NCBI GenBank assembly: GCA_035519565.1
Contig: DATIWD010000026.1
Location: 1,074-65,073, forward strand
DNA length: 64,000 nt
Direction: 5' to 3'
DNA from: Gemmatimonadales bacterium
GTDB taxonomy: Bacteria; Gemmatimonadota; Gemmatimonadetes; Gemmatimonadales; GWC2-71-9
The translations under genes and the position numbers were made by a program. Positions 14,724-47,848 of the stretch are shown here, piece after piece. The notes below the pieces were generated by a model that saw only the letters and a program-made list of their open reading frames with translations, was not told the DNA's origin and did not search any database. Numbering within the stretch: position 1 is the first letter of the stretch; each line of letters opens with the position of its first letter.

Positions 14724-16291
14724 CAGCGGCCCTGGTGGGGGGTCAGCAGGGCGATGGGCAACACCATCTCCTCCGGCGCCACCCCACCATGAAGGAAGGC
14801 CCCACGGTAGCGGGCCTGATACTCACGCAACTTGGTGGGGTAGACGAAGAACCGGTCGCCGGTGGCCAGCAGCAGGCGGGCATCGGCGCCTCGCTCGGGG
14901 AGTCCGTAGCTCGACAGGTCGTCCACCACGATGGCGGCCTCGGGATCCTCGATCCGGAGGTCGTCGCCGAACTTGTAGCGCAGGTTCAAGGTCGCGTCCC
15001 GCTTGGCGAAGACCGTGGCGGGCGTATGACAGTGGATCCACCCGTGATCGGTGGTGACCAGCACCGGCACGCCGCGGGTGTCCGCCGCGCGGAGCGCGCC
15101 CCAGAGCGGGGAGCGCTCGAACCAGGTCCGGGTCAGGCTCCGCAGGGCCGGCGCGTCCCGCGCGACTTCGAACAGGGTCGAATTCTCGGTCCGCCCGTGG
15201 GTGAGCTGGTCGATGAAATTGAACACCAGCGCCGTGATTCCCGGTTGCGCCAGGTGGGTCGGCAGTCGGCGCAGGAGCGCCTCGCCGTCCTGTGAGGTGA
15301 AGACCTTTTCGTAGCGGACCGGCACGTCCCTTCCAGTCAGCCGCTTCATCTGCCGCTGCAGCAGCTCGCCCTCGTGAGCGTTGAGCGAGGTCTCGTCGGT
15401 GTCCTTCCACCATTCGGGATAGCGCCGGGCCAGCTCGGCCGGGAGGAGCCCACTGAAGATCGCGTTCCGCGCGAACGGCGTGGCGGTCGGGAGAATCGAG
15501 AGGTAGTGGACCGTCTCGATGTCGAACCGGGTCCCGATGATCGGGCGCAGCACCTCCCATTGATCGAGGCGGAGGCAATCCACCACGACCAGCAAGGCCT
15601 TGCCGTGGCGCTCGAGGACCGGCGCCAGGAACTCCGAGCCGATGTCGATGCTCAAGGGCGGGCGACCGGCCCGGTCGCTCCGGAGCCACCGGGGATATTC
15701 CTGGGCCACGAAGTGGGCAAAGTCCCCGCGCAGGCTTCCCTGGAGCGTGCGAAGCGCGTCCTGAAGTCCCGGCTCGTCGGCCTGGCCCAGCCGCACCTCC
15801 CATTCGGCCAGCTCGACCACCAGCGCGATCCACTCGCGCCACCCCATTCCGGCGCGCCGTCCCGCCTCCAACTCGCGGAACCGGGTCGCGAAATCGCGGG
15901 AGAGCCGTTGCTGGCGGATCCGGTCTCCCTCCAGCAGCCGGGTGACCACCGAGAGAATCTGCCGGGGGCTCGCGGGCTTGATGAGATAGTCGGAGATCTC
16001 GGCGCCGATCGCGTCCTTCAGGGTCTCCGGCTCCTCGCTCTTGGTCACCATGACCACCGGCAGGGTCTGATCGATGGCCCGGATGGCCCGGAAGAGATCG
16101 AGTCCGCGCCGGCCCGGCATCTGCTCGTCGAGCAGGACTACCCCATAGGGCTGGCGCTGGAGCAGCACCAGGGCATCGTCGCCGTGCGCGGCACGTTCGA
16201 CCATGAACCCCTGCTGTTCCAGGAACAGGACATGCGAGGTGAGACTCTCCACCTCATCGTCCACCCAGAGAATGCTTCGCGGGCGCGCCAT
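14723..16291 (-). CDS. response regulator with C-terminal PglZ (alkaline-phosphatase-fold) domain, PorX-like
   Basis: Canonical receiver (WVDDE, VVLLDEQMPG, VVMVTK, YLIKP) followed by about 390 aa with a PglZ-like core (LLVVVDCLRLDQW, VTTDHG). Start at ATG 16291. Confidence 0.75.
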   Translation of the reverse strand: MARPRSILWVDDEVESLTSHVLFLEQQGFMVERAAHGDDALVLLQRQPYGVVLLDEQMPGRRGLDLFRAIRAIDQTLPVVMVTKSEEPETLKDAIGAEISDYLIKPASPRQILSVVTRLLEGDRIRQQRLSRDFATRFRELEAGRRAGMGWREWIALVVELAEWEVRLGQADEPGLQDALRTLQGSLRGDFAHFVAQEYPRWLRSDRAGRPPLSIDIGSEFLAPVLERHGKALLVVVDCLRLDQWEVLRPIIGTRFDIETVHYLSILPTATPFARNAIFSGLLPAELARRYPEWWKDTDETSLNAHEGELLQRQMKRLTGRDVPVRYEKVFTSQDGEALLRRLPTHLAQPGITALVFNFIDQLTHGRTENSTLFEVARDAPALRSLTRTWFERSPLWGALRAADTRGVPVLVTTDHGWIHCHTPATVFAKRDATLNLRYKFGDDLRIEDPEAAIVVDDLSSYGLPERGADARLLLATGDRFFVYPTKLREYQARYRGAFLHGGVAPEEMVLPIALLTPHQGR

Positions 16292-16401
16292 GAGGTGAAG
16301 CTTACCGGAGGCGAGGGTGCCGAGCAACGCGCTGGCGGCGGCTGCACCCGCATTCTACATTCCGCTCATCCGATCCGAAGCGCCCCTTCGCGCGATCATC
16401 C

Positions 16402-35674: not shown

Positions 35675-35782
35675 GACGGACAGGGCGGACACGATGGACA
35701 GGGCGGTCAGGCTCGGCTCGCCGCTACCGCCTTACCGCTTTGTCCGTCCTTTCCGACTTGTCCGTCTTGACCGTCTTGTCCG
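35675..35782. repeat. two inverted arrays of 9-bp tandem repeats
   Basis: Plus-strand array 35675-35710: GACGGACAG GGCGGACAC GATGGACAG GGCGGTCAG. Opposite array 35735-35782, read on the minus strand: CGGACAAGA CGGTCAAGA CGGACAAGT CGGAAAGGA CGGACAAAG CGG. AAGACGGACA (35673-82) is the exact reverse complement of TGTCCGTCTT (35759-68). Confidence 0.85.
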
Positions 35783-36193
35783 TTTTACGACCACGGCCAC
35801 CGCTCCTGCCGCGCTCTGTGCGTGCGACAGCGAAAGGTGCACCTCCAGTGGCCCATGCCGCCGCGCCAAGGCCGCCGCGCGGCCGAGGAGGGACATTCCT
35901 GGCCGGCCACCGGGATCCCGGGTGACTTCCAGATCGTGCCAGCTTACCGACGCCGCACCGGGGAGTGCCTGAAGTGCCTTGAAGGCCGCCTCCTTGGCGG
36001 CGATCCGGGCGGCCAGATGAGGAGTGGGCCGAGCCATGCCCCGGACGTAGGCGATCTCGGAATCGGTCAGCAGCTTTTCCATGGCCCGCGCACCGTGGCG
36101 CGCGAGCAGCCGCTCGACGCGCGGGATGTCCACGAGATCGATTCCGATCCCGATGAGGCCGTCGGCGGGGATGCTCAGAAGATCTCCCACCAC
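35732..36193 (-). CDS. acpS: holo-[acyl-carrier-protein] synthase
   Basis: IGIGIDLVDIPRVE N-terminal motif and KEAAFKAL block. GTG start at 36193 or 36190, overlapping the upstream gene. Unusual basic C-terminal tail KRTRRSRRTSRKGRTKR encoded by the 9-bp repeat. Confidence 0.8.
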   Translation of the reverse strand: MVGDLLSIPADGLIGIGIDLVDIPRVERLLARHGARAMEKLLTDSEIAYVRGMARPTPHLAARIAAKEAAFKALQALPGAASVSWHDLEVTRDPGGRPGMSLLGRAAALARRHGPLEVHLSLSHAQSAAGAVAVVVKRTRRSRRTSRKGRTKR

Positions 36194-36903
36194 CAGGTCA
36201 CCAGAGGCCGCAGCCACTCCGGTGCCGGCAGGAATCCGCCGATCACCAGACCGAAATAGATCGCCGTGCCGAACAGCAGCGAGCCCACCACGAGGACCGG
36301 CCACCAGGGGCGGTGCCAGGAACGAATGCGCTCGATTTCGGAGCTCCACCCCGATTGTTCCCGTTTGACGGCTTCTTCCAGCGAGATCCACGCCGCCTCC
36401 AATCGCCGCGCGGCGGTGGTCAGGGCGCGCTCCCATGCTTCGGTGGTGGCGCCCTCGGCGGCGGTCCCCTCCTGTCGGAGCGCGTCGAGCGCGGTCAGCA
36501 GGGGCCCGGCCCCTGCCCCGAGCCGGACCAGGATGGCGCGCGCTTCGGCGGGCGCCACCGCGACGGCGCGTTTCCGACGGCGCGGCATTCTCGCCTCGAT
36601 GGCTGCCGACAGCAGTCTCGCATCGATTCCCCGCACCAGGCTTTCGGCGGAGGAGGCGACGGCTCGATCCCACGCCGCCGACCATCCATCGGCACCCAGT
36701 GCCGTGATCCGCTGCCGGGGGTCCGCCGCCGCGCGGGCCCGGCCGGCCAGCTCGAAGATGTCGGTGACGAGTTGATACCGGATGGCGTCGAGGTCGGCCC
36801 ACGATGAGGAATCGTGCGACGGGGGTGTCGCCAGCCGGCCGAGCGAGGGCCCCAGCTCGGGAACCGAGACGGCGATCGGCTCCACGGTCACCGCAGCCGC
36901 CAC
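36175..36903 (-). CDS. hypothetical protein, helical N-domain with a C-terminal Trp-rich TM hairpin
   Basis: 242 aa with no recognisable motif. C-terminus WWPVLVVGSLLFGTAIYFGLVIGGFLPAPEWLRPLVTWWWEIF. GTG 36903, or GTG 36891 giving a GTGA overlap with the CYTH gene. Confidence 0.55.
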   Translation of the reverse strand: MAAAVTVEPIAVSVPELGPSLGRLATPPSHDSSSWADLDAIRYQLVTDIFELAGRARAAADPRQRITALGADGWSAAWDRAVASSAESLVRGIDARLLSAAIEARMPRRRKRAVAVAPAEARAILVRLGAGAGPLLTALDALRQEGTAAEGATTEAWERALTTAARRLEAAWISLEEAVKREQSGWSSEIERIRSWHRPWWPVLVVGSLLFGTAIYFGLVIGGFLPAPEWLRPLVTWWWEIF

Positions 36904-37493
36904 CCTGGCGCGGCGCCGCGAAGCTCCTGGACCGTCAGGATGGCTCGCTGGCCGGTCCGAGACTCATAGCGGGCGACGAACTCGGGCAGCGACTCAGGCA
37001 GGAAGAGCATGCGCGGCAGTCTCGTTGCCTCCACGGCGGCTTCGATGGCCGGTCCGGTGCCCTCGATCTCCAGCAAGGTATCCATCCGGGGATACCACTC
37101 GAGACGCGCTACCGCCCCCGCGATATTGAAGAACCGGACGAAGCGATCGATGGCCACGATCACCTTGAATCCCAGCGCCTGAAACAGCTCGATCACGGGC
37201 GCCGCGCCGGTCACCTCGAATTCCAGCTCCTGGCGCAGTTTGTAGCCTTCGGCGGAGCGCTGAGTCGGGCCCTTCCATGCCACCAGCGCGCGCGGCGTCG
37301 CGCCGGTTTCCGAAGGGCGCATGAGGCGGACGCGGAGGACCTCGTCGCGCGAGGTCAGCTCTCCATCGCGATCGAACTTGCGGTCTTCCATTAAACCGCT
37401 GAATCCGGCCACCGCACCGGCCTTGAGAAGAGCCTCGATGACCGCGTTGGGATCGTGCACCAGGGCCTTGAGCTCGAGCTCGTCGGCCTTCAT
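36888..37493 (-). CDS. CYTH-domain protein (triphosphate tunnel metalloenzyme / class IV adenylate cyclase-like)
   Basis: N-terminal ExExK signature (MKADELELKAL). About 200 aa with an alternating beta-strand pattern. 4-nt overlap with the HAD gene. Confidence 0.65.
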   Translation of the reverse strand: MKADELELKALVHDPNAVIEALLKAGAVAGFSGLMEDRKFDRDGELTSRDEVLRVRLMRPSETGATPRALVAWKGPTQRSAEGYKLRQELEFEVTGAAPVIELFQALGFKVIVAIDRFVRFFNIAGAVARLEWYPRMDTLLEIEGTGPAIEAAVEATRLPRMLFLPESLPEFVARYESRTGQRAILTVQELRGAAPGWRLR

Positions 37494-38188
37494 GCGAGGA
37501 TTGCCTGCACGACCGCCTCGGTCGCTGCCAAGTCCTCGAACGCCGCGTGAGCGCCGGCGGCGGTCAATTCGACCAGTGCGTAACTCCCGGTGGCGACCGC
37601 GACCGCCCGGGCCCCAACTTCCCGACCACAGGTGACGTCAGCAGGCGTATCGCCGACAATGACGATCTCCTCGCCTCGGGGCTCGCGTCCGAAGAACGGC
37701 CGGGCCCGCCGCGCGGCGATGGCAGGGAGTCGGGGGCGCTCGGCGGCATCGGAGCCGAAGGCGCCAACCGTGAAGCGGGAGGGATCGAGCCCGGCGGCCC
37801 GGAGCTTGAGCGCCGCCCCGGCCGAGAGGTTCCCGGTCAGGAGACCCAGAACCACCCCGGCCTCTGCCTCCAACCGCTCGAGCAAGGGACCGACCCCGGG
37901 CAACACGCGAACCGGCGGGGTCCCCGGTCGGAGCTCCCGTTCCAGGAGTGCGACGTAGCTCTTGCAGAGCACTTCGATACGCTGATCCAGGGCCGGCTCG
38001 GGAACCCCGGCCAGAGTCAGAATCTCGGCCACGATCTGGGGATCGGTCTTTCCGTCGAAGCGGACTCGCCGGAAGACTTCCAGGTCGCCCACCAGGTGGG
38101 CCATCGCCGCCGTCAGCGCGCGTCGTCCGGCGCCCTGGGTCAGTAGCAGGGTTCCGTCGATATCGAAGAGGACCAGTTTGCGTTTCAC
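37490..38188 (-). CDS. HAD-superfamily phosphatase (phosphoglycolate phosphatase-like)
   Basis: Motif I LFDIDGTLL, motif II LLTGN, motif III/IV K...GDTPADV. GTG 38188 preceded by GGAGGCAAA. GTGA overlap with the upstream gene. Confidence 0.8.
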   Translation of the reverse strand: MKRKLVLFDIDGTLLLTQGAGRRALTAAMAHLVGDLEVFRRVRFDGKTDPQIVAEILTLAGVPEPALDQRIEVLCKSYVALLERELRPGTPPVRVLPGVGPLLERLEAEAGVVLGLLTGNLSAGAALKLRAAGLDPSRFTVGAFGSDAAERPRLPAIAARRARPFFGREPRGEEIVIVGDTPADVTCGREVGARAVAVATGSYALVELTAAGAHAAFEDLAATEAVVQAILA

Positions 38189-38973
38189 TTTGCCTCCGGG
38201 ACGCGGCGCACCGCGACCAGCCGTTCGCGCAGATACCCGGCGCGGGTACCGGGTACCCAGGGCTCGACGACGAATCCTCCGCACGACAAGGCGGCATGGA
38301 CCAGGGTATCGCGAGGGCCGGCCAGGGCCACGTGCGAGACCCGTCCGTTCTCATTGAAGAAGAGAAGGTCGCCGGGCCGAAGCTTGGCGGGTTCGACGGC
38401 CACTCCAGCGGATACCTGATCTCCGGTGTCGCGGGGCAGCTCGATGCCGCGAGCGGCGAACACGGTCTGCACCAGCCCCGAACAGTCCGCGCCCCAGGGC
38501 GTGACGCCACCCCAGAGATAGGGCGTTCCCGCAAACATCCGGGTGGCCCACTCAAAGACCGGCTCGGCTCGGGCGGTCGCGCGGGCCTCTGCGACGGGGA
38601 CCACCCGTCCCGCCATCAGTCGGCCGCTCTGGCCGTCGGGCAAGTGGATCGCCTTCCCGCGAAGCTCGACTCGGGCTCGCAGCGGAACCCGCCACACCGT
38701 TTCGCCCAGGATCACCGCCCCATCGCTCCAGCCCTGGGCCCGCCGCTTCCAGCTCTCGGCCTCCTCGCGGGAGACCTCGAGGAGGTAGCCACGATGGACC
38801 CATCCTTCGTATCGGTCGAAGTCGGCGCGAATCCGCCGCCAGTCTCCCTTCGATTCCAGGAGGGAGCCGGTTTCGCCGAGCACGAGTTGGCTGAGCTGTT
38901 CCGCGCGGACCGCCGGAGCCGCCCCCAGAGGAGCCAGGGCGGCACGGACGATCACAGCGTCTGGAATGGGCAT
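38185..38973 (-). CDS. NlpC/P60 (C40) peptidase with N-terminal SH3b-like domains
   Basis: Catalytic Cys block GTPYLWGGVTPWGADCSGLVQ and downstream His (VSHVALA). The N-terminal half is SH3b-like. Confidence 0.8.
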   Translation of the reverse strand: MPIPDAVIVRAALAPLGAAPAVRAEQLSQLVLGETGSLLESKGDWRRIRADFDRYEGWVHRGYLLEVSREEAESWKRRAQGWSDGAVILGETVWRVPLRARVELRGKAIHLPDGQSGRLMAGRVVPVAEARATARAEPVFEWATRMFAGTPYLWGGVTPWGADCSGLVQTVFAARGIELPRDTGDQVSAGVAVEPAKLRPGDLLFFNENGRVSHVALAGPRDTLVHAALSCGGFVVEPWVPGTRAGYLRERLVAVRRVPEAK

Positions 38974-39019
38974 GAAGCTGAAAGGCCGGACTAGGGCAAG
39001 AGCGGTGTGGCGAGAGCGG

Positions 39020-39229
39020 CTAGCTGGAAGCGGGAGACGGCTTGTCCGACTTTCCGGCCGCGGCCGCCTTGGCCTCGCAGGCCTGACAGCGGATCACGCC
39101 TCGGAAGGTGCAGACCAGGCAAATGAAGGTTCCGCAGTCCGCGCAGGGGTAGCCTTCCGACGCCCGCTCCTCGCGCCCGCAGGCGCGGCAGTTCATCGCA
39201 TCGTGTTCCTTGAGTTCCGTCATGGTCAC
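39020..39229 (-). CDS. small cysteine-rich protein with four CxxC pairs (double zinc ribbon)
   Basis: 69 aa. C14/C17, C29/C32, C37/C40, C48/C51. Starts 4 nt after the regulator stop. Ala/Lys/Ser-rich tail. Confidence 0.6.
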   Translation of the reverse strand: MTMTELKEHDAMNCRACGREERASEGYPCADCGTFICLVCTFRGVIRCQACEAKAAAAGKSDKPSPASS

Positions 39230-39233
39230 CGTC

Positions 39234-40574
39234 CTAGAGCGTGATCGCGTACCGCTTGATCTTGTTGATCAGCGTCGCCCGCGATATGCCCAGCTCCTGG
39301 GCGGAACGGGTGCGGTTACCGGCATGGTGCCGCAGGGTCCGTTCAATGTGCTCCCGTTCCAGTTCGTCCATGGTACGCGGGGTGTGGCGACGGTCGCCGA
39401 CCCCGGCCCGGTTCCGGAATTCGCCGGGGAGGTGCTCGACTCCCACCACCGCCTGTCCCCGGGCGAGGATCAAGGCCCGCTCCAGTACGCCTCGCGCCTC
39501 CCTGATGTTGCCGGGCCAGGAATAGCCCAGCAACCGCTCGAGACATTCGGGCGCGAGCGACGCCGGTCCGCCCGGTACTTCCAGCTGCAGCTCGCTCAGG
39601 AGCCGGAGCACCAGCGTCAGACGATCCTCGGCGGTCCGGTCCTTGAGCGAGGAGAGGGAAATCGGCATCACATCGAGGCGATACTGGAGATCTTCCCGCA
39701 ACCGGCCCGCCTCGACCTCGGCGCTCAGGTCGCGACTCGTGGTCGCAATCAACCGCACGTCCACCTTCACGTCCTGGCTGCCTCCCAGCCGTCGGATGGT
39801 TCGGGTCTCCAGCACCCGGAGCACCTTGGGCTGCAGCTCGAGGGGAAGATCCCCGATCTCCTGGAGTACCAGGGTGCCTCCCTCGGCGGCCTCGAACAGT
39901 CCCAGCCGCCGATGAGTGGCGTCGGGATGGGCGCCGCGTTCCTGCCCGAAGAGCGCGGCATCGAGCCCGGCCACCGATTGCCCGGTGCAGCGGATCCGGA
40001 AGAACCCCGCGCGGCTGCGCGGGCTCAGCCGATGGATCTGGGCGGCGACCCAGGCCTTGCCGATGCCCAGCTCGCCCCGGATCAGCACCGTGGTCCGGTC
40101 ACTCTGAGCGAAGAGCGCGATCTGGCGAGCCAGCTCCCGCATGGGACCCGACTGGCCCAGCACATCCAGCCCCCCGCTGGGGAGAACCTCTTTGGCCAGC
40201 CGGCTGGCCAGTCGGCCCAGCTTGACCTTCTCGACGACGCGGGCGGCGGCGCCGAGCAGGAGGGCCGTGTCGGGCGGGCGAGTGAGCACGTGCTCGACGC
40301 CCAGGGCCACGGCCCGTTTGGTCAGGTCGACGTCGGCGCCGGCCTGGAGCGCGATGACCGCCGCGCCCCGCTCATGCAATCCCTGGAAAAGCTCGAGGCC
40401 GGCAGGCGACTCGAGCTCGGCCACCACGACGTCGGGGTGCAGCCGATCGTAGGTGGCCAGGCCTTCTTCGGGGGTGAGCTCGCGCGATACCTCGAACCCC
40501 GCGCCCTCGAACTGCCCTCCGGTGGCGCGGAGTACGCCGGCGTCGCGGTCGATCAGTAGCACCGAATCAGGCAT
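39234..40574 (-). CDS. NtrC-family (receiver-AAA+-Fis HTH) regulator with degenerate receiver and AAA+ motifs
   Basis: Architecture is clear (GELGIGKA, GGTLVLQEIGDLPLELQPKVLRVL, VDVRLIATT, C-terminal SAQELGISRATLINKIKRY). However, the phospho-acceptor reads AELES, GAFTGA reads GAHPDA and Walker B DE reads QE. Confidence 0.8.
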   Translation of the reverse strand: MPDSVLLIDRDAGVLRATGGQFEGAGFEVSRELTPEEGLATYDRLHPDVVVAELESPAGLELFQGLHERGAAVIALQAGADVDLTKRAVALGVEHVLTRPPDTALLLGAAARVVEKVKLGRLASRLAKEVLPSGGLDVLGQSGPMRELARQIALFAQSDRTTVLIRGELGIGKAWVAAQIHRLSPRSRAGFFRIRCTGQSVAGLDAALFGQERGAHPDATHRRLGLFEAAEGGTLVLQEIGDLPLELQPKVLRVLETRTIRRLGGSQDVKVDVRLIATTSRDLSAEVEAGRLREDLQYRLDVMPISLSSLKDRTAEDRLTLVLRLLSELQLEVPGGPASLAPECLERLLGYSWPGNIREARGVLERALILARGQAVVGVEHLPGEFRNRAGVGDRRHTPRTMDELEREHIERTLRHHAGNRTRSAQELGISRATLINKIKRYAITL

Positions 40575-40600
40575 CAGCGAATCTCAGAATGGCGGGAGCC

Positions 40601-42529
40601 TCAGCGCGACAACTCGAACCAGAACCGTGCCCCTCCCTCGGGCCGGTTCTGCGCCCGGATCTCACCTCCATGCGCCCGGATTATACCATGAGAAATGGAG
40701 AGTCCAAGACCGGTCCCCTCGCCCACCCCTTTGGTCGTGAAGAACGGCTCGAACAATCGCGGCATCACTTCGGGCGGAATCCCCGGTCCGGTATCGGTCA
40801 CCTCGCACCCCACGATCTGTGCAGTGGACCAGGTGCGCACCCGACCGACGCGCCGGGGCGCGCCCTGCATCGCGTGGGCGGCGTTGGTCAGCAGGTTCGT
40901 AAGCACCTGCCGCAGCTGCTCCGGATCCGCGCTGATCGGGGGAAGGCCGGCTTCGAGGGCCAGCTCCCACTGCAACTCGGGCTCGACCTGACCCACGGCC
41001 TCGCTCACCAGGACATTGAGGTCGGTCTGGTGCCGCCGCAGGGGGCGTTGACGGGCGAAGGTCAGCAGGTCGCCGACGATCCGCGCGGCACGCACTGCCT
41101 CACGCCGGATCATCTGGGCCACTCGCCCGCCTTCCTCGCCGGTCGCCGGATCGAGGGACATGGCCTGGGCCAGGGCCGCGATTCCCGCCAGAGGATTGTT
41201 GAGCTCATGCGCGGCGCCCGATACCAGCTGCCCCAGCGCCGCCATCCGCTCGGTATGCTCGAGCCGGTCGCGCAGCTCCCGTTCTTCCGTGATGTCCCGG
41301 GCGATGGTCAGCACCGAGCGACCGCCCCGGGCTTCGGCCACCGGCACCGAGATCGCCGCCGCTTCGCGCAGGGCGCCGTCCTCCCGCTGAAAGTGCATGG
41401 TGTATTGGCGCGACTCGCCCTGCAGGCAGGCGTCGAGCTGCGCCCGCACCGGGTCGCGCTCGCGGGCCGACAGGAAGTCTTCGAGCAGGCGGCCCGGGGC
41501 GGGCTGAGTGACGCCGGCCAACCCCATGGCCGCCTGATTCACGGCCTGGAACCGGTGGTCGGCGTCGGTGGTGAAGATGGCCACCGGCGCCGCCGCAAAG
41601 AGCGCGCGGAAGCGGGCCTCGGAGCGTTCCAGTGCTTCCTGGGTCAGCCGCTCGGGGGTCACGTCGTCGATCGCCGCGACCACGCCTCCGTCGGCCCGGG
41701 GTGTCGCGGTGAGCACCAGCACCCGGCCATCCCGGCTCTGGAGCAGGCGACTGACCCGCTCCTTCCCGGACTCGGCCAGCCACAGGGGATCCTGCTCCGG
41801 CGCCGGCCACTCGGCGAAGAGCGCGCGCAGATCGTAGCCGGGGAGCGAGGTCACCGGCACCCCGGCCAGAGCGGCGACGAAGCGATTGGCGCGAATGACC
41901 CGGCCCGAAACCTCGACCAGTGCGAGACCGCTGCCGGTGCCATCGAAGGTGGATTGCCACTCGCGTTTGACCCGGCTCACCATGTCCAGCAGACGGCTCT
42001 TCCCGATCGCGAGGGCGGCCTGATCGGCAAAGGCGGTGGCGAGCCGGCGCTCCTCGGGTCCGTAGGTGCGGGGCCGGTCGTGGCAGAACATCAGGGCCCC
42101 CATCGGCTCACCCCCGAAGATCAGGGGGAGCAACGCCATGGAGACGAACCCCTCGGTGGCGGCCTCCGCGGCCAGGGGGAAATCAGGATCGGCGGGAGCG
42201 TCGAGGATGAACCGGGGGCCGGCCTGAAGGATCTCCCGCACGCTGCCCTCGTCCCCGAGGATGCGTTCGACCGCATCGCTGAAGCGGCTGGAGAGCCCGA
42301 TGGCCACGGCGCCGCGAGCCCCACGGCGCCCCGCCTCGAACAGAAAGACCCCGGCCCGCTCGGCCCGGAAGACCCGGATCCCTTCGGCCCCCACCAGCTC
42401 CATGCTCCGGGTGGCGTCCTCGGCTTCAGTGAGGGCGTGGGCGATCCGGCCAAGGGCTTCGATCTGCTCGAGTCGCCGGGTAAGGAGGTCCTCGAGGGGA
42501 ACCGCAGAGGATTCCGGCGAGCCGCTCAC
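40601..42529 (-). CDS. soluble GAF-PAS-PAS sensor histidine kinase
   Basis: H-box AAHELNNPL, N-box LLTNAAHAM, G-boxes DTGPGIP and GTGLGLS. No TM segment. GTG start in a GTGA overlap with the upstream lipid kinase gene. Confidence 0.85.
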   Translation of the reverse strand: MSGSPESSAVPLEDLLTRRLEQIEALGRIAHALTEAEDATRSMELVGAEGIRVFRAERAGVFLFEAGRRGARGAVAIGLSSRFSDAVERILGDEGSVREILQAGPRFILDAPADPDFPLAAEAATEGFVSMALLPLIFGGEPMGALMFCHDRPRTYGPEERRLATAFADQAALAIGKSRLLDMVSRVKREWQSTFDGTGSGLALVEVSGRVIRANRFVAALAGVPVTSLPGYDLRALFAEWPAPEQDPLWLAESGKERVSRLLQSRDGRVLVLTATPRADGGVVAAIDDVTPERLTQEALERSEARFRALFAAAPVAIFTTDADHRFQAVNQAAMGLAGVTQPAPGRLLEDFLSARERDPVRAQLDACLQGESRQYTMHFQREDGALREAAAISVPVAEARGGRSVLTIARDITEERELRDRLEHTERMAALGQLVSGAAHELNNPLAGIAALAQAMSLDPATGEEGGRVAQMIRREAVRAARIVGDLLTFARQRPLRRHQTDLNVLVSEAVGQVEPELQWELALEAGLPPISADPEQLRQVLTNLLTNAAHAMQGAPRRVGRVRTWSTAQIVGCEVTDTGPGIPPEVMPRLFEPFFTTKGVGEGTGLGLSISHGIIRAHGGEIRAQNRPEGGARFWFELSR

Positions 42530-43428
42530 GCGGTGGGGGCCATCACGGTAATGGCGGCGGGTACCACGTTCACGGTGAAGGGAGTCTGGCCGGCCGGCTC
42601 CCCGTCCATCTGGACCGGCTGCGCCGGATCGCTCTCGACCCGGATCTCCTCGCCCTGGGCGTAGCCCACGTAGCCGGACTCGCCATCGAAATGGTCGCGC
42701 TCACGCAGCAGGTCCCAGACGGCACGGACCCCTTCCAACAGGCTGTCGGCACGGAGCGTCAGCAGGTCCAGACGGCCGTCGCTGGGAGAGATGCTGCTCC
42801 GCAGCTGCACGTACGGCGGGATGACTTCCCGGCAGTTGGCGACCAGGACCATGGCGGCGGTGGTTTCGCGCTCGATTCCGTCCACCGTGATGATCTGGCG
42901 CACGCTCCTGAGCTCAGGCAACAGCCGGAAGGTGGTGGCCACGTACGCCGCCATGCCCCAGCGCCGCTTTTCAAGGCCGGCGGTCTCCGCCATGATCCGG
43001 GCGTCATAACCCGCCCCGCAGGCCACGGCGAAGTAATGGAGGCCATCGGACCGCTCCATCCGTCCCAGATCGATCGGCTGCGCCCGCGCACGGAGCAGCG
43101 CCCTGGCCGCCTGGGCCGGCGAAGCGGGGATGCGGAGGTTGCCGGCCAGGAGGTTTCCCGTCCCGCCCGGGATGATGCCCAGGCTGGTTTCAGTCCCGAC
43201 GAGGGCCGCCGCCGCCTGCATGGTCGTGCCGTCGCCTCCGAAGACGGTCACCACGTCGTAGTCCTCCTCTACCGCCTGTTCGGCAAAGCGGCGCGCGTCC
43301 CCGGTCCCGCCGGTGACATGGGCCTCGACCGACCAGCCGCCCTGCTGGAGGATCTGTGCGACCTCGGCCAGCGTCTGGTGCGCGGTCCGGGCCGCGGCGG
43401 GGTTGGTGATCAGGAGCGCCCGGGTCAT
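42526..43428 (-). CDS. diacylglycerol/lipid kinase family protein (YegS/BmrU-like)
   Basis: ALLITNPAA..., TVFGGDGT and GIIPGGTGN motifs. ATG 43428, one nt after the tamB stop. Confidence 0.8.
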   Translation of the reverse strand: MTRALLITNPAAARTAHQTLAEVAQILQQGGWSVEAHVTGGTGDARRFAEQAVEEDYDVVTVFGGDGTTMQAAAALVGTETSLGIIPGGTGNLLAGNLRIPASPAQAARALLRARAQPIDLGRMERSDGLHYFAVACGAGYDARIMAETAGLEKRRWGMAAYVATTFRLLPELRSVRQIITVDGIERETTAAMVLVANCREVIPPYVQLRSSISPSDGRLDLLTLRADSLLEGVRAVWDLLRERDHFDGESGYVGYAQGEEIRVESDPAQPVQMDGEPAGQTPFTVNVVPAAITVMAPTA

Positions 43429-43429
43429 G

Positions 43430-46400
43430 TCACCACTCGCGCTGCCAGAGCACGTCGAAGCCAACCTGATACCGGTTGACGTTGCTCTGCAGGGCCGGGT
43501 TGATGTCGGTGCAGTAGAGGCTGGGTTCCACGGTGGCCTTGAGGCGGAATTCCTTGCTGATGCGGTATTCGGCGTTGGGGTAGAGCTGAGTACGGTTGGT
43601 ACAGACGTCCGCGTTCACCGCCACGAACACATTGCGGCCGATCTGCCAGCCGGCCGCCACCTGGGCCACTGAAGCCACCCCGGTCTGATTGGTCTGCGAA
43701 GGGGAAAGCTGACCCGGCTTGATCTCGATGTAGTCGATCGGCACGCCCAGATCGGTGGCCAGCGTTCGCTGAATCTCGTTGGAGAGCGCGCTCGACAGAT
43801 AGGAGACTGCGCTGTTCACGGCCGCCAACTGGTTGGCACCCTGGGCGGAATTGCCGCTGGCCAGACCGAACGACGGCTGGCCGAACATAAGGTACGAGAC
43901 CAATTCGGTTTCGGATAGCGGCGGGTGCTGGTCGCTGGTGAGCGTCAGCTTGGGCGCGAGCAGCGTTCCCGACACGGTGGCGATCACCGGGATCTCTTCG
44001 TTGTCGGGCACCGTGCGTACCGTGTAGCGGGCTTCGATGTCGAGATCGGCGTTCAGGTCCGGGGTCCCGAAATAGCGCACGTCGCCCCGCTCCACCGTGA
44101 AGTTCCGAGTGACGAACCCGACCTTGAGCGCGTAGGTGCCCCGGAGCGCGGTCAGCGTACCGTAGATCCGGTAATTCTGGCGCACTTTGTTGACCGTCAG
44201 CGCGCCGTCCAGCTGGATGTTGGCTTCGTTGGACCGAAGCCAGAACGATTCGCCCATGCTCAGGCGCAGGTCCTGGATGATCAGCGCCTCGAGGAACTTG
44301 TTGGGGATACCCACGCCCAGCCGCTGGCGCCTGATCTGGGATTGATCGATCAACTCGGAATCGGGAGTGGTCTCCAGGTCCACGATTCTCTTGGTGATCA
44401 GGTCGGCAAAGTGGAGCGCCCCGCTGTTCGCCGTGAGCTCGCCGGTTACGGTGGCGCCGATGAACGGGCCCCGGAGCGCCACGTCGCCGCTCGCCTCCAG
44501 CGAGAGCAGGTTCCGGATGTCGACCGCATAGAACCGGCTGGCCCGGAATCGAAGATCGAACACCGGGCGGGTCAGCTCCTCCAGGCGGAGCCCCCCCGTC
44601 ACCCGCATCGTCCCCTGCCCACTGTTGAGTTTGAGCGTGTCCAGCTGAATCGAGTCCCCGCTCAGGCGGGCCCGGCCCGAGATGCCGGTGTACCGGGCCC
44701 CCAGAGCCGGAAGGGTCATGGCGGCATCGCTGAGCGAGATATAGCCGGAGAGCCGCGGAGCGTCCCAGGTTCCGCCCAGTTCCATGGCGGCGTTGAGCAC
44801 GCCGCGCACGCCGCGCACCGTCGGGGTGAACGCCTCGATCACGCCGAGGTCGGTACTGTCCGCCGTCCCTCGGATCAGCAAGGGGCCCTGAAGCCGGCGC
44901 TCGGGAACCGACTTGAGCGCCAGATCCACCGGCAGCTGGCCCTGCACCCGCAGCACCGGCTGGCCGGTCCGCCAGACCAGGAGATTGGCCTCCAGCGATC
45001 GGTCGGCGTAGTTGACCACTCCCTGAATGAAGGGCGCGTTGAAGTCCTCGAAGCGTGCGTCGGCCAGCGAGGCGGTTCCCGTGAAGGTCGGCGACTCGAA
45101 GTTTCCCCCGACCGCCAGGTCCATACCCACCCGGCCGTTGACCCCGGTGGTATCCCGTTGGCCGAGCAGATAGAGGTCCTGGAGCGGAAGGCCCAGCACG
45201 TGGATCGCGAAGTCGCCGGCGCGGCCACGGGGTACCGTCCCGCCGACGCCGATCGAGCCCGAGCCGTCATCGGCATCCAGAGTGACCGACTCGATCGAGA
45301 AGGCGGTGTCGGCCAGGAGGGCGCTGGTCGGATGGCTGAGCTGCCAGCGATGGTTAGGCAGGTTGGCGGCGAGACTATCGACGTGGTAGAGCCGAGCGTC
45401 TCCGCGGCGCCACCAGTACCCCCCACCCCGGAGCAGTACCGCTTCTCCCAATCCCAGGCTGGTGTGCCAGTCGAGCGAGTCGGCGTATCCCTCCACCTCG
45501 AAGCCGGCGTTTCGAGCCACCCAGTGCCCCACGCTGACCGAATCGGAGGCGAGACTCGCCGCGAGGCGCGGCCGGCGACCACCGCCCCACTCGAGCTTCC
45601 CGTCCAGCACGGCGGTGCGGGCCTGTTGCCAACTCGCGTCGCGGACCTCGGCCTCCAGGCGGGCATTGAGCGAATCGAGCGAGCCACCCAGTCGGAGCGC
45701 GGCGTCGCCACGGCCGCTCAGGCGCCGCGACCCCGCGCTGGTGTCCCGCGGCAGACCGCTCATCACCAGGGCGAGGGAGTCCAGCACGCCGAGGCTGTCC
45801 AATCGGGCGTTGAACTGCATGACCCCGTCGTGCCCTGAAGTCCAGCCGAGGGTCCCCGATCCTCCGAGCCCGCCGGCCAGCCAGCTCATCCCGAGGGTGT
45901 CGAGCTGAATCAGGCTGTCCGCCACCGAGACGATGGTCCACGCGGTGTCGAAGACGAACTCGCGCATCGAGCCCGGGCCCAGCTCGACGGCCAGACGCCC
46001 CTTGGGCGCGACCAGCGTGTCGATCACTCCGGTCGCGCGCAGGGATCCCTGGAGCCGAGTGTGGGGCCCATCGCCGCGCAGCGTCCCGAGATCGAGGTCC
46101 CGAAACTCGATCGCCATGTCATCGGCGCCCCAGCGGGGAGGCAGCACGGTGCCTCGGCCCCTGGCGTGGAATGTGCCCAGCTCGCCGTGAAGGTTGGCGT
46201 CGATCGCCAGCCGGTCGAGGAATCCGGAGGTGTGAACCCGGCCCGAGAGCCGACCCTGGCTCTTGAGTGAGGGAAAGGCCCTCCGGATTCCCTCGAAGTC
46301 GAGGGGATCGAACGTGAGGTCGGAGGCGAGCCCGAGGGTGTTGCCCCGGCTGTCGAAGGTCACCGACCCGCTCGCCACGCTGACCGGGCGATCGCCGTCC

Positions 46401-47848
46401 TGATGCTGGACCGTTCCCTGAAAGCTGATCAGCTGCAGGGGGCCGTCGAGCGTCCCCGACCCCTGCATCCGTCCTTCGAGAATCACCGCCGGAATCAGCA
46501 GCCGTGCGGAACGCAGATCGACATCCGCCTGCGTAAGCTCGGCGTGCTGGAACTCGAGGCCGTGCGGCCCGTTCAGTATGAGGTGGCCGTTCAGGGCGAT
46601 GCGGTTGAGCGGATGATCCTCCAGGCGTCCTTCGCGGAACATCCAGTCGAGGTCCACGTCCATGCTGTCGAAGTAGCCCCCGCCGGCGAGGGTTCCGCTG
46701 ACGCTTCCCTGGAACGGCAAGGTGTCGAGGTAGGGCCGCACCGCCTCGAGGTCGAGATCGGTGAGGGTCAGCTGCATGCCTCGTACGCCCAGCCCGCGGG
46801 CCTGGTTGGTGAGCAGAGTCACCCGCCCTTCCGCCTGCCCCGCGGCCCCGCTCAGGCGCAGGTCGCGAAGCGTGTACGCGGTCAGGGAATCGGACGTGGA
46901 TTGGAGACCGACCAGGCTCCGCCCCGACAGCGATGGAAAGTCCGGCGAGATCCAGCGCAGGTCCCCCAGGTCGATACGGGGCGCCGCCAGGGCCAGGTCG
47001 TATTGCAGCGGTCCGTGGGGCCAGGTGACCACGCCGCCGCCCCGCACCAGCGTGTTGGGGAGCGTGGCCCGGGTGATACTGAGGGCCAGGCTGTCTTCGT
47101 GAGTCCAGCCCCGGATCACGCCCGAGGTGATCGTGACCGCCGGATCGCTCACATGGGTCGCGATGGAATCGATATCGAAGGTGAGCGGCTGGTGGTCGGG
47201 GCTGCTGATCAGGATCCGGCGGAACTGCACGGTCAGCGGATCGAACGAGATGATGCGCTGCAGCCCCTCCGGGGTGTCTTCGATGACCCGCCCCGGCTGG
47301 GCCCGGTCGGCGGCCAGCGCCGCGTCGCGCGCCGCCTGGGTGTGGGCGTTATCCGGTGGAGACCAGGGCAACGAGATCCGGAGCAAGCCATCATCGACGG
47401 TCAGGTTCCGAAACTCGATCAGCGGCGAGGGACCGGTGCCGGGAGGACCTTCACCCAGCTTGAGCACTTCCTGGAAGTTGAGCCGCCCGCTGGAATGCTT
47501 GGTGATGTGAATGGTGGGATGATCCAGCGTGATCCTGCTCAGGACCACGCGGCCCACCAGGAGACTCTGGAGCCCGAACCGGATTTCCGCCCTGGGCAGC
47601 GACGCCAGGAGCGCGCCGCTGGTGTCGCGCACGGTCACCCGCTCCAGCGTGAGATCCCGAAGGAAGGAGCCGTAGATCGCGCCGATTTCGAACTGGCCCC
47701 GGAGACTCCGGCCCAGCTCGGCCGCGACTGCGCGCGCCAGCAGGGCCCGCCCCGAGCCGGTCCGGACCAGCACCATGACCAGGGCGATCAGGATCGGCAG
47801 CGTGCCGAGGGCGAGGGCGAGCAGGACCCGACCGGCGCGGCGTCGCAT
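43430..47848 (-). CDS. tamB: translocation and assembly module protein TamB (AsmA-like, DUF490 C-terminus)
   Basis: 1472 aa with an N-terminal signal-anchor and a long repetitive beta-rich body. The C-terminal block ends ...GFDVLWQREW. Directly downstream of an Omp85 gene. Confidence 0.8.
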   Translation of the reverse strand: MRRRAGRVLLALALGTLPILIALVMVLVRTGSGRALLARAVAAELGRSLRGQFEIGAIYGSFLRDLTLERVTVRDTSGALLASLPRAEIRFGLQSLLVGRVVLSRITLDHPTIHITKHSSGRLNFQEVLKLGEGPPGTGPSPLIEFRNLTVDDGLLRISLPWSPPDNAHTQAARDAALAADRAQPGRVIEDTPEGLQRIISFDPLTVQFRRILISSPDHQPLTFDIDSIATHVSDPAVTITSGVIRGWTHEDSLALSITRATLPNTLVRGGGVVTWPHGPLQYDLALAAPRIDLGDLRWISPDFPSLSGRSLVGLQSTSDSLTAYTLRDLRLSGAAGQAEGRVTLLTNQARGLGVRGMQLTLTDLDLEAVRPYLDTLPFQGSVSGTLAGGGYFDSMDVDLDWMFREGRLEDHPLNRIALNGHLILNGPHGLEFQHAELTQADVDLRSARLLIPAVILEGRMQGSGTLDGPLQLISFQGTVQHQDGDRPVSVASGSVTFDSRGNTLGLASDLTFDPLDFEGIRRAFPSLKSQGRLSGRVHTSGFLDRLAIDANLHGELGTFHARGRGTVLPPRWGADDMAIEFRDLDLGTLRGDGPHTRLQGSLRATGVIDTLVAPKGRLAVELGPGSMREFVFDTAWTIVSVADSLIQLDTLGMSWLAGGLGGSGTLGWTSGHDGVMQFNARLDSLGVLDSLALVMSGLPRDTSAGSRRLSGRGDAALRLGGSLDSLNARLEAEVRDASWQQARTAVLDGKLEWGGGRRPRLAASLASDSVSVGHWVARNAGFEVEGYADSLDWHTSLGLGEAVLLRGGGYWWRRGDARLYHVDSLAANLPNHRWQLSHPTSALLADTAFSIESVTLDADDGSGSIGVGGTVPRGRAGDFAIHVLGLPLQDLYLLGQRDTTGVNGRVGMDLAVGGNFESPTFTGTASLADARFEDFNAPFIQGVVNYADRSLEANLLVWRTGQPVLRVQGQLPVDLALKSVPERRLQGPLLIRGTADSTDLGVIEAFTPTVRGVRGVLNAAMELGGTWDAPRLSGYISLSDAAMTLPALGARYTGISGRARLSGDSIQLDTLKLNSGQGTMRVTGGLRLEELTRPVFDLRFRASRFYAVDIRNLLSLEASGDVALRGPFIGATVTGELTANSGALHFADLITKRIVDLETTPDSELIDQSQIRRQRLGVGIPNKFLEALIIQDLRLSMGESFWLRSNEANIQLDGALTVNKVRQNYRIYGTLTALRGTYALKVGFVTRNFTVERGDVRYFGTPDLNADLDIEARYTVRTVPDNEEIPVIATVSGTLLAPKLTLTSDQHPPLSETELVSYLMFGQPSFGLASGNSAQGANQLAAVNSAVSYLSSALSNEIQRTLATDLGVPIDYIEIKPGQLSPSQTNQTGVASVAQVAAGWQIGRNVFVAVNADVCTNRTQLYPNAEYRISKEFRLKATVEPSLYCTDINPALQSNVNRYQVGFDVLWQREW

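What the first reader, a model, noticed from the sequence alone, without database searches (positions are those of the whole stretch)
39020..42529. Intact sensor kinase paired with a multiply degenerate NtrC-family regulator and a 4xCxxC mini-protein
The kinase looks intact. It has soluble GAF-PAS-PAS inputs and good H, N and G boxes.

The regulator keeps the receiver-AAA+-Fis HTH layout, but aligned by eye to E. coli NtrC several key positions differ:
- The phospho-acceptor position reads DVVVAELESP (Asp to Glu).
- The Thr switch reads IALQA.
- The conserved Lys reads LTRP (Lys to Arg).
- The sigma54-contacting GAFTGA loop reads GAHPDA.
- The Walker B GGTLFLDEIG reads GGTLVLQEIG (Asp to Gln).

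It therefore looks phosphorylation-independent and probably sigma54-independent, or a non-catalytic scaffold. That leaves the kinase without an obvious substrate.

Four nt downstream is a 69-aa protein with four CxxC pairs (two zinc ribbons). It could be an anti-activator, an adaptor or the real output.
Basis: partly seen in the sequence, partly recalled or inferred. Interest (0 to 1): 0.7.

Follow-up and report, generated by a model that had tools for sequence, protein, structure and literature searches.

The report
Kinase beside a disabled NtrC-type regulator
In a Gemmatimonadales bacterium, an intact sensor kinase sits next to an NtrC-type regulator that has lost its phosphorylation site, its sigma-54 contact loop and part of its ATPase site yet is still under strong purifying selection; this is a lineage-specific variant of known "atypical" regulators, followed by a small, highly conserved eight-cysteine protein of unknown function.

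Summary
Profile alignments place Glu53 at the phospho-acceptor, Arg10, Gln77 and Arg99 at three other receiver active-site positions, GAHPDA at the GAFTGA loop and Gln238 at the Walker B Asp. The kinase boxes are intact. The mini-ORF has eight invariant Cys.

None of the three genes is decaying: against a sister species (dS 0.7), dN/dS is 0.08 for the regulator, 0.10 for the kinase and 0.05 for the mini-protein.

Orthologues in other Gemmatimonadales are mostly canonical, with an intact receiver and ATPase and a GAFTDA loop. The window's clade of three species-level lineages is nested in a subclade that had already lost the loop and the Walker B Asp. Other lineages deleted the whole AAA+ domain. 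The Fis-type HTH stays almost invariant throughout.

The regulator is therefore best read as a pseudo-receiver, atypical enhancer-binding protein that works without phosphorylation or sigma-54.

The three genes are not a fixed unit. The mini-protein is found across the order (at least 599 species genomes). It occurs with or without the kinase or the AAA+ domain, and once without any regulator. So it is not a specific partner of the degenerate state, and its function is unknown.

Novelty: a new variant of known kinds. Interest: moderate.

The parts
40601..42529 (-). Soluble sensor histidine kinase, 642 aa: GAF, PAS, PAS, HisKA (His441, nt 41207-41209) and HATPase_c. Its start overlaps the stop of the upstream YegS/DAGK-like gene by 4 nt.
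   Evidence: Pfam domains. H, N, G1, F and G2 boxes intact; the HELNNPLAGI core, F and G2 boxes match kinases paired with canonical receivers. No membrane-helix-like segment. dN/dS 0.10 overall and 0.05 in DHp against the sister species.
39234..40574 (-). NtrC-family regulator, 446 aa: pseudo-receiver, atypical AAA+ domain, lid and Fis-type HTH.
   Evidence: Pfam and NCBIfam: no equivalog reached; best is AtoC at 261 bits against a 714 cut-off. PDB alignments. dN/dS 0.077.
40254..40562 (-). Pseudo-receiver domain (residues 5-107): Asp9-Arg10 (DD), Glu53 (acceptor position, nt 40416-40418), Gln77 (Thr position), Arg99 (Lys position), and a 2-residue deletion in the beta3-alpha3 loop.
   Evidence: Response_reg 25.6 bits, below the 30.2 cut-off. 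Alignments to Spo0F and DctD. Family alignments. dN/dS 0.21.
39660..40160 (-). AAA+ sigma-54-interaction-type domain (residues 139-305). Walker A GELGIGK173; L1 loop GAHPDA (nt 39918-39935); Walker B LVLQ238E239 (nt 39855-39872); Arg195 in place of the Asn of EVNCAG; Arg293 and Arg299 of REDLQYRL retained.
   Evidence: PF00158 at 170.6 bits. Alignment to ZraR, NtrC4, FlrA and NifA. Family table. dN/dS 0.05.
39249..39371 (-). Fis-type HTH (HTH_8, residues 402-442). It is almost invariant across all forms of the family, including the short REC-HTH forms.
   Evidence: PF02954 at 51.6 bits. Alignments. 100% identical to the sister species at dS 0.57.
39020..39229 (-). Eight-cysteine mini-protein: 69 aa from GTG 39229, more likely 67 aa from ATG 39223. 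Pattern CxxC-x11-CxxC-x4-CxxC-x7-CxxC with an invariant EERASEGYPC motif.
   Evidence: 666 homologues, none assigned to a Pfam family. All 8 Cys invariant. AF2 mean pLDDT 79.5. Median 76% identity across 80 species, against 38-55% for the neighbouring genes. dN/dS 0.05. SD-like AGGA 8 nt before the ATG.

Best explanation
The locus is a lineage-specific derivative of a two-component/bEBP module. The module sits in a gene array conserved across the Gemmatimonadales: TamA, TamB, YegS-like kinase, [kinase], regulator, mini-protein, NlpC/P60, HAD, CYTH.

Shown:
- The ancestral regulator type was canonical: an intact receiver, an intact ATPase and a GAFTDA loop. GAFTDA is a variant accepted elsewhere as sigma-54-competent.
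- Within one subclade the L1 loop, the Walker B Asp and the Asn of EVNCAG were lost.
- Inside that subclade, the ancestor of the window's three species-level lineages also lost the acceptor Asp, the Thr, the Lys and one acidic-pocket Asp.
- The gene, its kinase and the mini-gene have stayed under purifying selection since then.
- The DNA-binding HTH is unchanged.

Inferred:
- The protein works as a DNA-binding transcription factor at sigma-70-type promoters, as VpsR, NtrX, HupR, TyrR and the Rhodobacter and Caulobacter NtrC proteins do. It does not remodel sigma-54 holoenzyme.
- Its AAA+ domain is kept as an oligomerisation or nucleotide-binding module with little or no hydrolysis.
- The receiver is locked in one state, with Glu53 possibly acting as a permanent phosphomimic.
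- The kinase, which looks catalytically competent, either acts on the pseudo-receiver by binding rather than phosphotransfer, or phosphorylates a receiver encoded elsewhere.
- The mini-protein is a zinc-binding module that is probably co-transcribed and translationally coupled with the regulator. Its role does not depend on the kinase, the AAA+ domain or the phosphorylation site.
For: - Motif states under profile alignment and in 121 orthologues.
- The NJ tree places window + L095 + L092 on one long branch. That branch sits inside a clade with a scrambled L1 loop and Walker B Q/E/P but an intact receiver. This clade is sister to the canonical GAFTDA clades.
- dN/dS against the sister species at dS 0.72: regulator 0.077 (REC 0.21, AAA+ 0.05, lid 0.014, HTH 0), kinase 0.10, mini 0.05. 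Against the 75%-identical lineage the values are 0.19, 0.21 and 0.14.
- 11 of 71 species carry a syntenic REC-HTH_8 gene with the whole AAA+ domain deleted. The ATPase/sigma-54 function is therefore dispensable in this family, while the HTH is almost invariant.
- The kinase boxes are intact.
- GAFTDA is treated as functional (PMC4641369). Phe3 and Thr4 are the critical positions, and Thr4 to Pro is the commonest defect (PMC3162934).
- Atypical EBPs acting at sigma-70 promoters are documented (PMC6158489; bioRxiv 10.1101/2023.06.06.543975).
- Asp to Glu and Lys to Arg are typical pseudo-receiver substitutions, and Glu can be a phosphomimic (PMC12632262).
- No excess of sigma-54 promoter-like sites in the window: 18 found against 19.2 expected.
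Against: - No experiment or expression data bear on any step of the mechanism.
- The Walker A Lys, Walker B Glu, both Arg fingers and sensor II are intact. Residual ATPase activity cannot be excluded from sequence.
- rpoN presence in this genome could not be checked. Only Gemmatimonas aurantiaca T-27 is documented to have it.
- No target promoter or operator was found.
- Long-term retention of an intact kinase next to a receiver it cannot phosphorylate has no demonstrated explanation.
- The tree is a distance tree without support values.
Confidence: 0.6

Rival explanations
1. The regulator is a relic on its way to becoming a pseudogene, and the multiple lost motifs reflect relaxed selection. 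The kinase would then be the only working part.
For: Many catalytic positions changed together. The clade sits on a long branch. The receiver evolves faster than the rest (dN/dS 0.21-0.34). Other lineages have deleted parts of the gene or all of it.
Against: The ORF is intact in all three lineages and in 10 near-identical contigs. Whole-gene dN/dS is 0.077 at dS 0.72, lower than for the neighbouring housekeeping genes (0.09-0.15). The AAA+ value is 0.05, the lid 0.014 and the HTH 0.
Confidence: 0.04
2. It is still a sigma-54 activator, but a constitutive one. Glu53 mimics phospho-Asp (as in NtrC D54E), Gln-Glu in Walker B still supports hydrolysis, and the GAHPDA loop still engages a co-evolved sigma-54. 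Control would then come from the kinase binding to it, or from the mini-protein acting as an anti-activator.
For: Most ATP-site residues are retained and the AAA+ domain is strongly conserved. Glu is a known phosphomimic. Sigma-54 exists in the phylum. The mini-gene is tightly coupled to the regulator gene: 4-10 nt apart here and 5-27 nt in most loci.
Against: Phe3 and Thr4 of the loop are both replaced, and these are the residues whose change abolishes activation. The nearest relatives have unrelated loop sequences (GAVEGA, ASPADV, ASEQEA, GGAGDA), so the loop is unconstrained in this subclade. Whole-AAA+ deletions occur in the same orthologous position. No excess of -24/-12 sites in 64 kb. 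The mini-protein is equally present beside canonical and AAA+-less forms.
Confidence: 0.1
3. The kinase has been rewired. It is kept because it phosphorylates a different receiver encoded elsewhere, and its adjacency to the pseudo-receiver regulator is only historical.
For: In 44 of 71 species the canonical orthologous regulator has no adjacent kinase, so kinase-regulator pairing across loci is normal in this family. The window holds another intact receiver, a REC-PglZ protein at 14726-16354. The kinase is under purifying selection.
Against: No partner can be named. The kinase and regulator genes stay adjacent, 26 nt apart in the window, in all three pseudo-receiver lineages. The receiver is still constrained (dN/dS 0.21), which fits a retained protein-protein role.
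Confidence: 0.25
4. The mini-protein is the functional partner of the regulator's constant part (HTH or receiver), for example a zinc- or redox-dependent co-regulator, or an RNA-polymerase-binding finger of the DksA/TraR kind.
For: It lies immediately downstream of the regulator in 70 of 71 complete loci, including the short REC-HTH forms, usually 5-27 nt away. It is the most conserved gene of the array (median 76% identity). There is a weak resemblance to the TraR/DksA C4 finger (E 0.9; 6 of 43 members hit zf-dskA_traR at E >= 0.02).
Against: The whole array is syntenic across the order, so adjacency alone is weak evidence. One genome keeps the mini-gene with no regulator. Two have other ORFs inserted between the genes. 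The similarity to TraR is not significant, and the AF2 model lacks TraR's long N-terminal helix. No fusions were found in 1.84 billion representatives.
Confidence: 0.25

Closest known systems
Atypical (sigma-54-independent) enhancer-binding proteins: VpsR, NtrX, HupR, TyrR/PhhR, HsfA, DhaR, Rhodobacter and Caulobacter NtrC
   Same: The REC/AAA+/Fis-HTH layout is kept, the GAFTGA loop is defective, and in some members Walker B is non-consensus (VpsR has Asn-Asp for Asp-Glu). They act at sigma-70 promoters without remodelling.
   Different: According to the papers read, phosphorylation of the acceptor Asp is needed in the Rhodobacter and Caulobacter NtrC proteins, and VpsR keeps and uses its Asp. 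Here four of the five receiver active-site residues are gone as well. The loop is substituted rather than deleted. Function at sigma-70 promoters is not shown here.
Pseudo-receiver / aspartate-less receiver response regulators (e.g. FleQ, FrzS, CmrT, as named in the review read)
   Same: Asp to Glu and Lys to Arg are typical pseudo-receiver substitutions, and a Glu may lock an active-like state (PMC12632262).
   Different: [quoted passage not shown] Here an intact kinase under purifying selection is the immediate upstream gene, and no second, canonical regulator lies in the array. The output is an atypical AAA+ domain plus an HTH.
Canonical NtrC/AtoC/DctD-type two-component bEBPs
   Same: Overall architecture. 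Best NCBIfam matches are AtoC, NtrC, the PEP-CTERM regulator and NtrX. Most orthologues in other Gemmatimonadales have every canonical motif, with GAFTDA in the loop.
   Different: The window protein fails the acceptor Asp, Thr, Lys, GAFTGA and Walker B Asp tests, and no equivalog cut-off is reached.
REC + Fis-type HTH regulators without an AAA+ domain (ActR/RegA/PrrA-like layout; from own knowledge)
   Same: Eleven Gemmatimonadales species carry, at the same syntenic position and with the same HTH, a 180-200 aa REC-HTH_8 protein.
   Different: The window protein still has its AAA+ domain. Relatedness of the short forms to ActR/RegA was not tested.
Cross-brace zinc fingers that bind two zinc ions (ZZ, PHD, RING, C1/DC1), for the mini-protein
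   Same: The eight-ligand spacing CxxC-x11-CxxC-x4-CxxC-x7-CxxC. The top fold matches are all of this kind (p62 ZZ: rmsd 2.6-2.7 over 39 columns). 39 of 43 members hit Pfam C1_2 just below the cut-off.
   Different: No match is significant (best Foldseek E 0.4; C1_2 24.4 bits against a 26 cut-off). The ligands are all Cys. The family is confined to Gemmatimonadota-type sequences: 68 clusters among 1.84 billion representatives.

Membership tests
Sigma-54-dependent bacterial enhancer-binding protein (bEBP) | AAA+ domain of the Sigma54_activat type | tested here: met
   PF00158 at 170.6 bits, residues 139-305.
Sigma-54-dependent bacterial enhancer-binding protein (bEBP) | GAFTGA (L1) loop with Phe/Tyr at position 3 and Thr/Ser at position 4 | tested here: not met
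   GAHPDA aligns to GAFTGA of ZraR, NtrC4, FlrA and NifA. The criteria come from PMC3162934 and PMC4641369.
Sigma-54-dependent bacterial enhancer-binding protein (bEBP) | Walker B Asp-Glu for ATP hydrolysis | tested here: not met
   Gln238-Glu239 aligns to Asp-Glu. The Asn of EVNCAG is Arg195.
Sigma-54-dependent bacterial enhancer-binding protein (bEBP) | Walker A GxxGxGK, Arg fingers and sensor II | tested here: met
   GELGIGK173, R293/R299 in REDLQYRL and R358 in GNIRE.
Sigma-54-dependent bacterial enhancer-binding protein (bEBP) | rpoN in the genome and -24/-12 target promoters | tested here: inconclusive
   No rpoN and no excess of TGGCAC-N5-TTGCW-like sites in the 64 kb. The rest of the genome is not available. 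G. aurantiaca T-27 has sigma-54.
Phosphorylatable two-component receiver | Five active-site residues: Asp-Asp, acceptor Asp, Thr/Ser, Lys | tested here: not met
   The residues are Asp9-Arg10, Glu53, Gln77 and Arg99. Response_reg scores 25.6 bits, below the 30.2 cut-off.
Pseudo-receiver (PsR/ALR) | Receiver fold detected, but at least one of the five catalytic residues is missing | tested here: met
   Four of five are replaced, with Asp to Glu and Lys to Arg as is typical.
Atypical (sigma-70-acting) EBP | bEBP architecture with a defective L1 loop | tested here: met
Atypical (sigma-70-acting) EBP | Regulates sigma-70 promoters independently of rpoN and ATP hydrolysis | not testable with these tools
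   This needs in vitro transcription or genetics. No target was identified.
HisKA-type sensor histidine kinase | H box His, plus N, G1, F and G2 boxes | tested here: met
   H441 in HELNNPL, NLLTNAAHAM, DTGPGI, FEPFFTTK and GTGLGLS.
DksA/TraR C4 zinc-finger family (mini-protein) | Significant match to PF01258 or to TraR/DksA, with an N-terminal helix or coiled coil carrying an acidic tip | tested here: not met
   Best E 0.9 against TraR and 0.021 against PF01258. The AF2 model has no long N-terminal helix.
C1/DC1, ZZ, PHD or RING cross-brace zinc fingers (mini-protein) | Match above the family threshold, or a significant fold match | tested here: inconclusive
   C1_2 at 24.4 bits against a 26 cut-off, in 39 of 43 members. 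Foldseek best E 0.4.

The most novel reading that the evidence does not exclude
An intact sensor kinase has been kept for a long time (dS about 1 between lineages) specifically to control a regulator that cannot be phosphorylated. Signalling would then pass by kinase-pseudo-receiver binding (allosteric or sequestration control), not by phosphotransfer. In addition, the invariant eight-Cys mini-protein would be a new kind of zinc-finger co-factor that works with the equally invariant Fis-type HTH, or with RNA polymerase, throughout the Gemmatimonadales.
Probability: 0.15. Interest if true: 0.7.

Novelty: new variant of a known kind. Interest (0 to 1): 0.45.

Why it matters
Atypical EBPs and pseudo-receivers are each known, but how they arise and how pseudo-receivers are controlled are open questions (PMC12632262).

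This orthologous family, fixed at one syntenic position in one bacterial order, shows a graded natural series:
- a canonical bEBP;
- loss of the sigma-54 loop and the Walker B Asp;
- loss of the phosphorylation site while the kinase is kept;
- or deletion of the whole AAA+ domain.

The DNA-binding helix stays unchanged through all of these. That makes it a useful comparative system for asking how sigma-54-dependent activators turn into ordinary transcription factors. It can also show what a kinase does next to a receiver it cannot phosphorylate.

The eight-Cys mini-protein is a near-universal, highly conserved Gemmatimonadales protein with no assigned function. Homologues occur in the genus Gemmatimonas, which has cultured members, so the questions can be tested.

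Tried and rejected
- Pseudogene reading: rejected on dN/dS. Near-identical contigs (99.4-100%) were too close to be informative. An earlier dN/dS script timed out.
- A different Asp at the acceptor site: none lies at the end of beta-3.
- 'The whole family lacks GAFTGA, so it is sigma-54-independent': withdrawn. GAFTDA and GAYTDA are accepted functional variants.
- Sensor-I Asn to Ser as extra evidence of ATPase loss: dropped, because the functional bEBP ZraR has His at that position.
- Sigma-54 promoter scan of 96 loci and the window: only scattered sites, and the one recurrent site lies behind the FTR1 gene in closely related genomes.
- Search for a conserved palindromic operator: only coding-sequence hits, and my control was invalid.
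- Sigma-70 promoter and terminator scan of the array: nothing above background.
- Fold search of the mini-protein model: no significant hit.
- Exhaustive profile search for distant relatives or fusions of the mini-protein: only 68 clusters, and the long ones are frameshift or chimeric calls.

Full report
**What is there.**
The stated interval holds three co-directional minus-strand genes.
- A 642-aa kinase (40601-42529), made of GAF, two PAS, HisKA and HATPase_c domains.
- A 446-aa NtrC-family regulator (39234-40574), with Sigma54_activat at 170.6 bits, AAA_lid_14 and HTH_8. Its receiver scores only 25.6 bits against Pfam's 30.2 cut-off.
- A 69-aa ORF (39020-39229) with four CxxC pairs.

No NCBIfam equivalog is reached; AtoS/AtoC are the best matches, far below their cut-offs. 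Homologues name the organism as Gemmatimonadales. The kinase has no membrane-helix-like segment. Its H441, N, G1, F and G2 boxes are present, and the His-containing core, F box and G2 box match those of orthologous kinases that sit beside canonical receivers.

**Checking the substitutions.**
- HMMER alignments of the full regulator to ZraR, NtrC4, FlrA and NifA, and of its first 126 residues to Spo0F, DctD and others, agree with a 121-sequence family alignment.
- In the receiver, the acceptor Asp is Glu53, the Thr is Gln77 and the Lys is Arg99. The second acidic-pocket Asp is Arg10, and two residues are missing from the beta3-alpha3 loop.
- In the AAA+ domain, GAFTGA reads GAHPDA and Walker B Asp-Glu reads Gln238-Glu239. 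The Asn that canonical members carry in EVNCAG is Arg195.
- The Walker A Lys, Walker B Glu, both Arg of REDLxYRL and the Arg of GNIRE are kept.
- The mini-ORF probably starts at ATG 39223, giving 67 aa. AGGA lies 8 nt upstream, and the orthologues and gene calls agree.

**Not a dying gene.**
- Two sister lineages were recovered with the same gene order: L091/L095 (regulator 90-91% identical) and L092-L094 (75%).
- Nei-Gojobori estimates against L095 (dS 0.64-0.96) give dN/dS of 0.077 for the regulator, 0.103 for the kinase and 0.052 for the mini-gene.
- The flanking genes in that comparison give 0.09-0.15.
- Within the regulator, the receiver is the least constrained part (0.21). The AAA+ domain (0.05), the lid (0.014) and the HTH (no replacements) are tightly held.

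**The family context changes the picture.**
The mini-protein profile found at least 599 species genomes, and the best 80 are all Gemmatimonadota. In these the order TamB, YegS-like kinase, [kinase], regulator, mini, NlpC/P60, HAD, CYTH is conserved. Of the 71 loci in which the interval is complete:
- 44 have a full-length regulator with no adjacent kinase;
- 15 have a kinase plus a regulator;
- 11 have a 180-200-aa REC-HTH_8 protein in which the entire AAA+ domain is deleted (Pfam, alignment);
- 1 has no regulator at all.

Most full-length orthologues are canonical in every motif except that the loop reads GAFTDA or GAYTDA. These variants are regarded as sigma-54-competent in Desulfovibrio (PMC4641369). 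I therefore withdrew my first thought that the whole family is sigma-54-independent.

A distance tree places the window with L095 and L092 on one long branch. That branch lies inside a subclade whose members have unrelated loop sequences (GAVEGA, ASPADV, ASEQEA, GGAGDA), have Walker B Gln, Glu or Pro in several cases, and lack the EVNCAG Asn, but still have intact receivers. So loss of the sigma-54 loop and of part of the ATPase site came first, and loss of the phosphorylation site came later and once. Eight of the short forms have independently drifted toward a pseudo-receiver, with Thr to Val/Ala and mostly Lys to Arg. Through all of this, the HTH (…GNRTRxAxELGISRATLINKIKRY) hardly changes.

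**Mechanism.**
- Shown: the motif states, the order of losses, the purifying selection, the intact kinase and the invariant HTH.
- Inferred from documented relatives: proteins of this architecture with a defective loop act at sigma-70 promoters without remodelling. Examples are VpsR (Walker B Asn-Asp), NtrX, HupR, TyrR/PhhR, HsfA, DhaR and the Rhodobacter and Caulobacter NtrC proteins.
- Asp to Glu and Lys to Arg are among the commonest pseudo-receiver substitutions, and Glu can mimic phospho-Asp (PMC12632262).
- I therefore read the regulator as a phosphorylation-independent, sigma-54-independent DNA-binding factor. Its AAA+ domain is kept for assembly or nucleotide binding.
- The kinase either controls the regulator by binding or serves a receiver elsewhere. 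The only other receiver in the window is a REC-PglZ protein at 14726-16354.
- The window has no rpoN and no excess of -24/-12-like sites (18 against 19.2 expected). Sigma-54 is documented in the phylum only for G. aurantiaca T-27.

**The mini-protein.**
- It is real and remarkable mainly for its conservation. All eight Cys and an EERASEGYPC motif are invariant.
- Median identity is 76% across 80 species, where its neighbours show 38-55%. dN/dS is 0.05.
- It belongs to no Pfam or NCBIfam family. 39 of 43 members fall just below the C1_2 cut-off.
- It has no significant solved-structure relative by sequence (best is TraR, E 0.9) or by fold. The best Foldseek E is 0.4, and the top hits are all PHD, ZZ, RING or C1 cross-brace fingers, from an AF2 model with mean pLDDT 79.5.
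- An exhaustive profile search of 1.84 billion representatives found only 68 clusters and no genuine fusions.
- It follows canonical, atypical, kinase-less and AAA+-less regulators alike, and once follows none. It is therefore not an adaptation to the degenerate regulator.
- The tight spacing (4-10 nt here, 5-27 nt in most loci) makes co-transcription, and a shared role with the constant HTH part, plausible but unproven.

**Comparison and verdict.**
- The regulator fails the membership tests for a sigma-54-dependent bEBP (loop, Walker B) and for a phosphorylatable receiver (4 of 5 residues). It meets the sequence definitions of an atypical EBP and of a pseudo-receiver.
- What is unusual is the combination in one protein together with an adjacent intact kinase under purifying selection. 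Of 20 characterised bacterial atypical regulators, only two are not orphans.
- The stepwise series visible within a single orthologous family is also unusual.
- This is a new variant of known kinds, not a new kind of system. Interest is moderate (0.45).
- The most novel reading still open has a probability of about 0.15. It is kinase-to-pseudo-receiver signalling without phosphotransfer, with the mini-protein as a new zinc-finger co-factor.

Noticed in passing
window 14726-16354 (-): A 543-aa protein with an intact receiver (Response_reg 85 bits) fused to a PglZ domain. It is the only other receiver in the 64 kb, so it is a conceivable alternative target of the kinase.
   Followed up: partly
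window 35732-50037 (-): A long co-directional array with overlapping or closely spaced genes: Omp85/TamA-like, TamB (1472 aa), YegS/DAGK-like kinase, HK, RR, mini, NlpC/P60 with SH3, HAD, weak CYTH, a 242-aa protein with no Pfam hit, and ACPS. It is syntenic across Gemmatimonadales and suggests a link to the cell envelope.
   Followed up: partly
L002, L004, L007, L009, L011, L012, L018, L037, L054, L055, L057 (between the DAGK-like gene and mini): The syntenic regulator is only 180-200 aa (REC + HTH_8), with the AAA+ domain cleanly deleted. Three have canonical receivers. Eight have pseudo-receiver-like changes (Thr to Val/Ala, mostly Lys to Arg) but keep the Asp.
   Followed up: yes
L015:5288-6422: This genome has no regulator between the DAGK-like gene and mini (144-nt gap). 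A stand-alone receiver gene lies convergent just downstream of mini.
   Followed up: partly
L005:1911-2882 and L008:1954-2826: In two species, 0.9-1 kb holding other ORFs is inserted between the regulator and mini. The pair is therefore not always contiguous.
   Followed up: no
window 39020-39223 (-), mini-protein residues about 25-58: The second half (YPCxxCG…FRGVxRCxxC…) aligns weakly with the TraR/DksA C4 finger (E 0.9, not significant). It is a lead toward RNA-polymerase binding, not evidence for it.
   Followed up: partly
L026, L027, L039, L070 at about 11.7 kb (-): A recurrent TGGCACGA-N3-GGTGCT sigma-54-like site lies just beyond the end of the FTR1/cytochrome gene in four closely related genomes with canonical GAFTDA regulators. 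Its orientation gives no obvious target gene.
   Followed up: partly
Francke et al. 2011 supplement: Gemmatimonas aurantiaca T-27 has another bEBP homologue with a defective loop (GAFPGA) and Walker B …YLDN. Its loop differs from the syntenic regulator of a Gemmatimonas sp. MAG (L042, loop TPSNGS), so it may be a different gene. Atypical EBPs may be common in the phylum.
   Followed up: no
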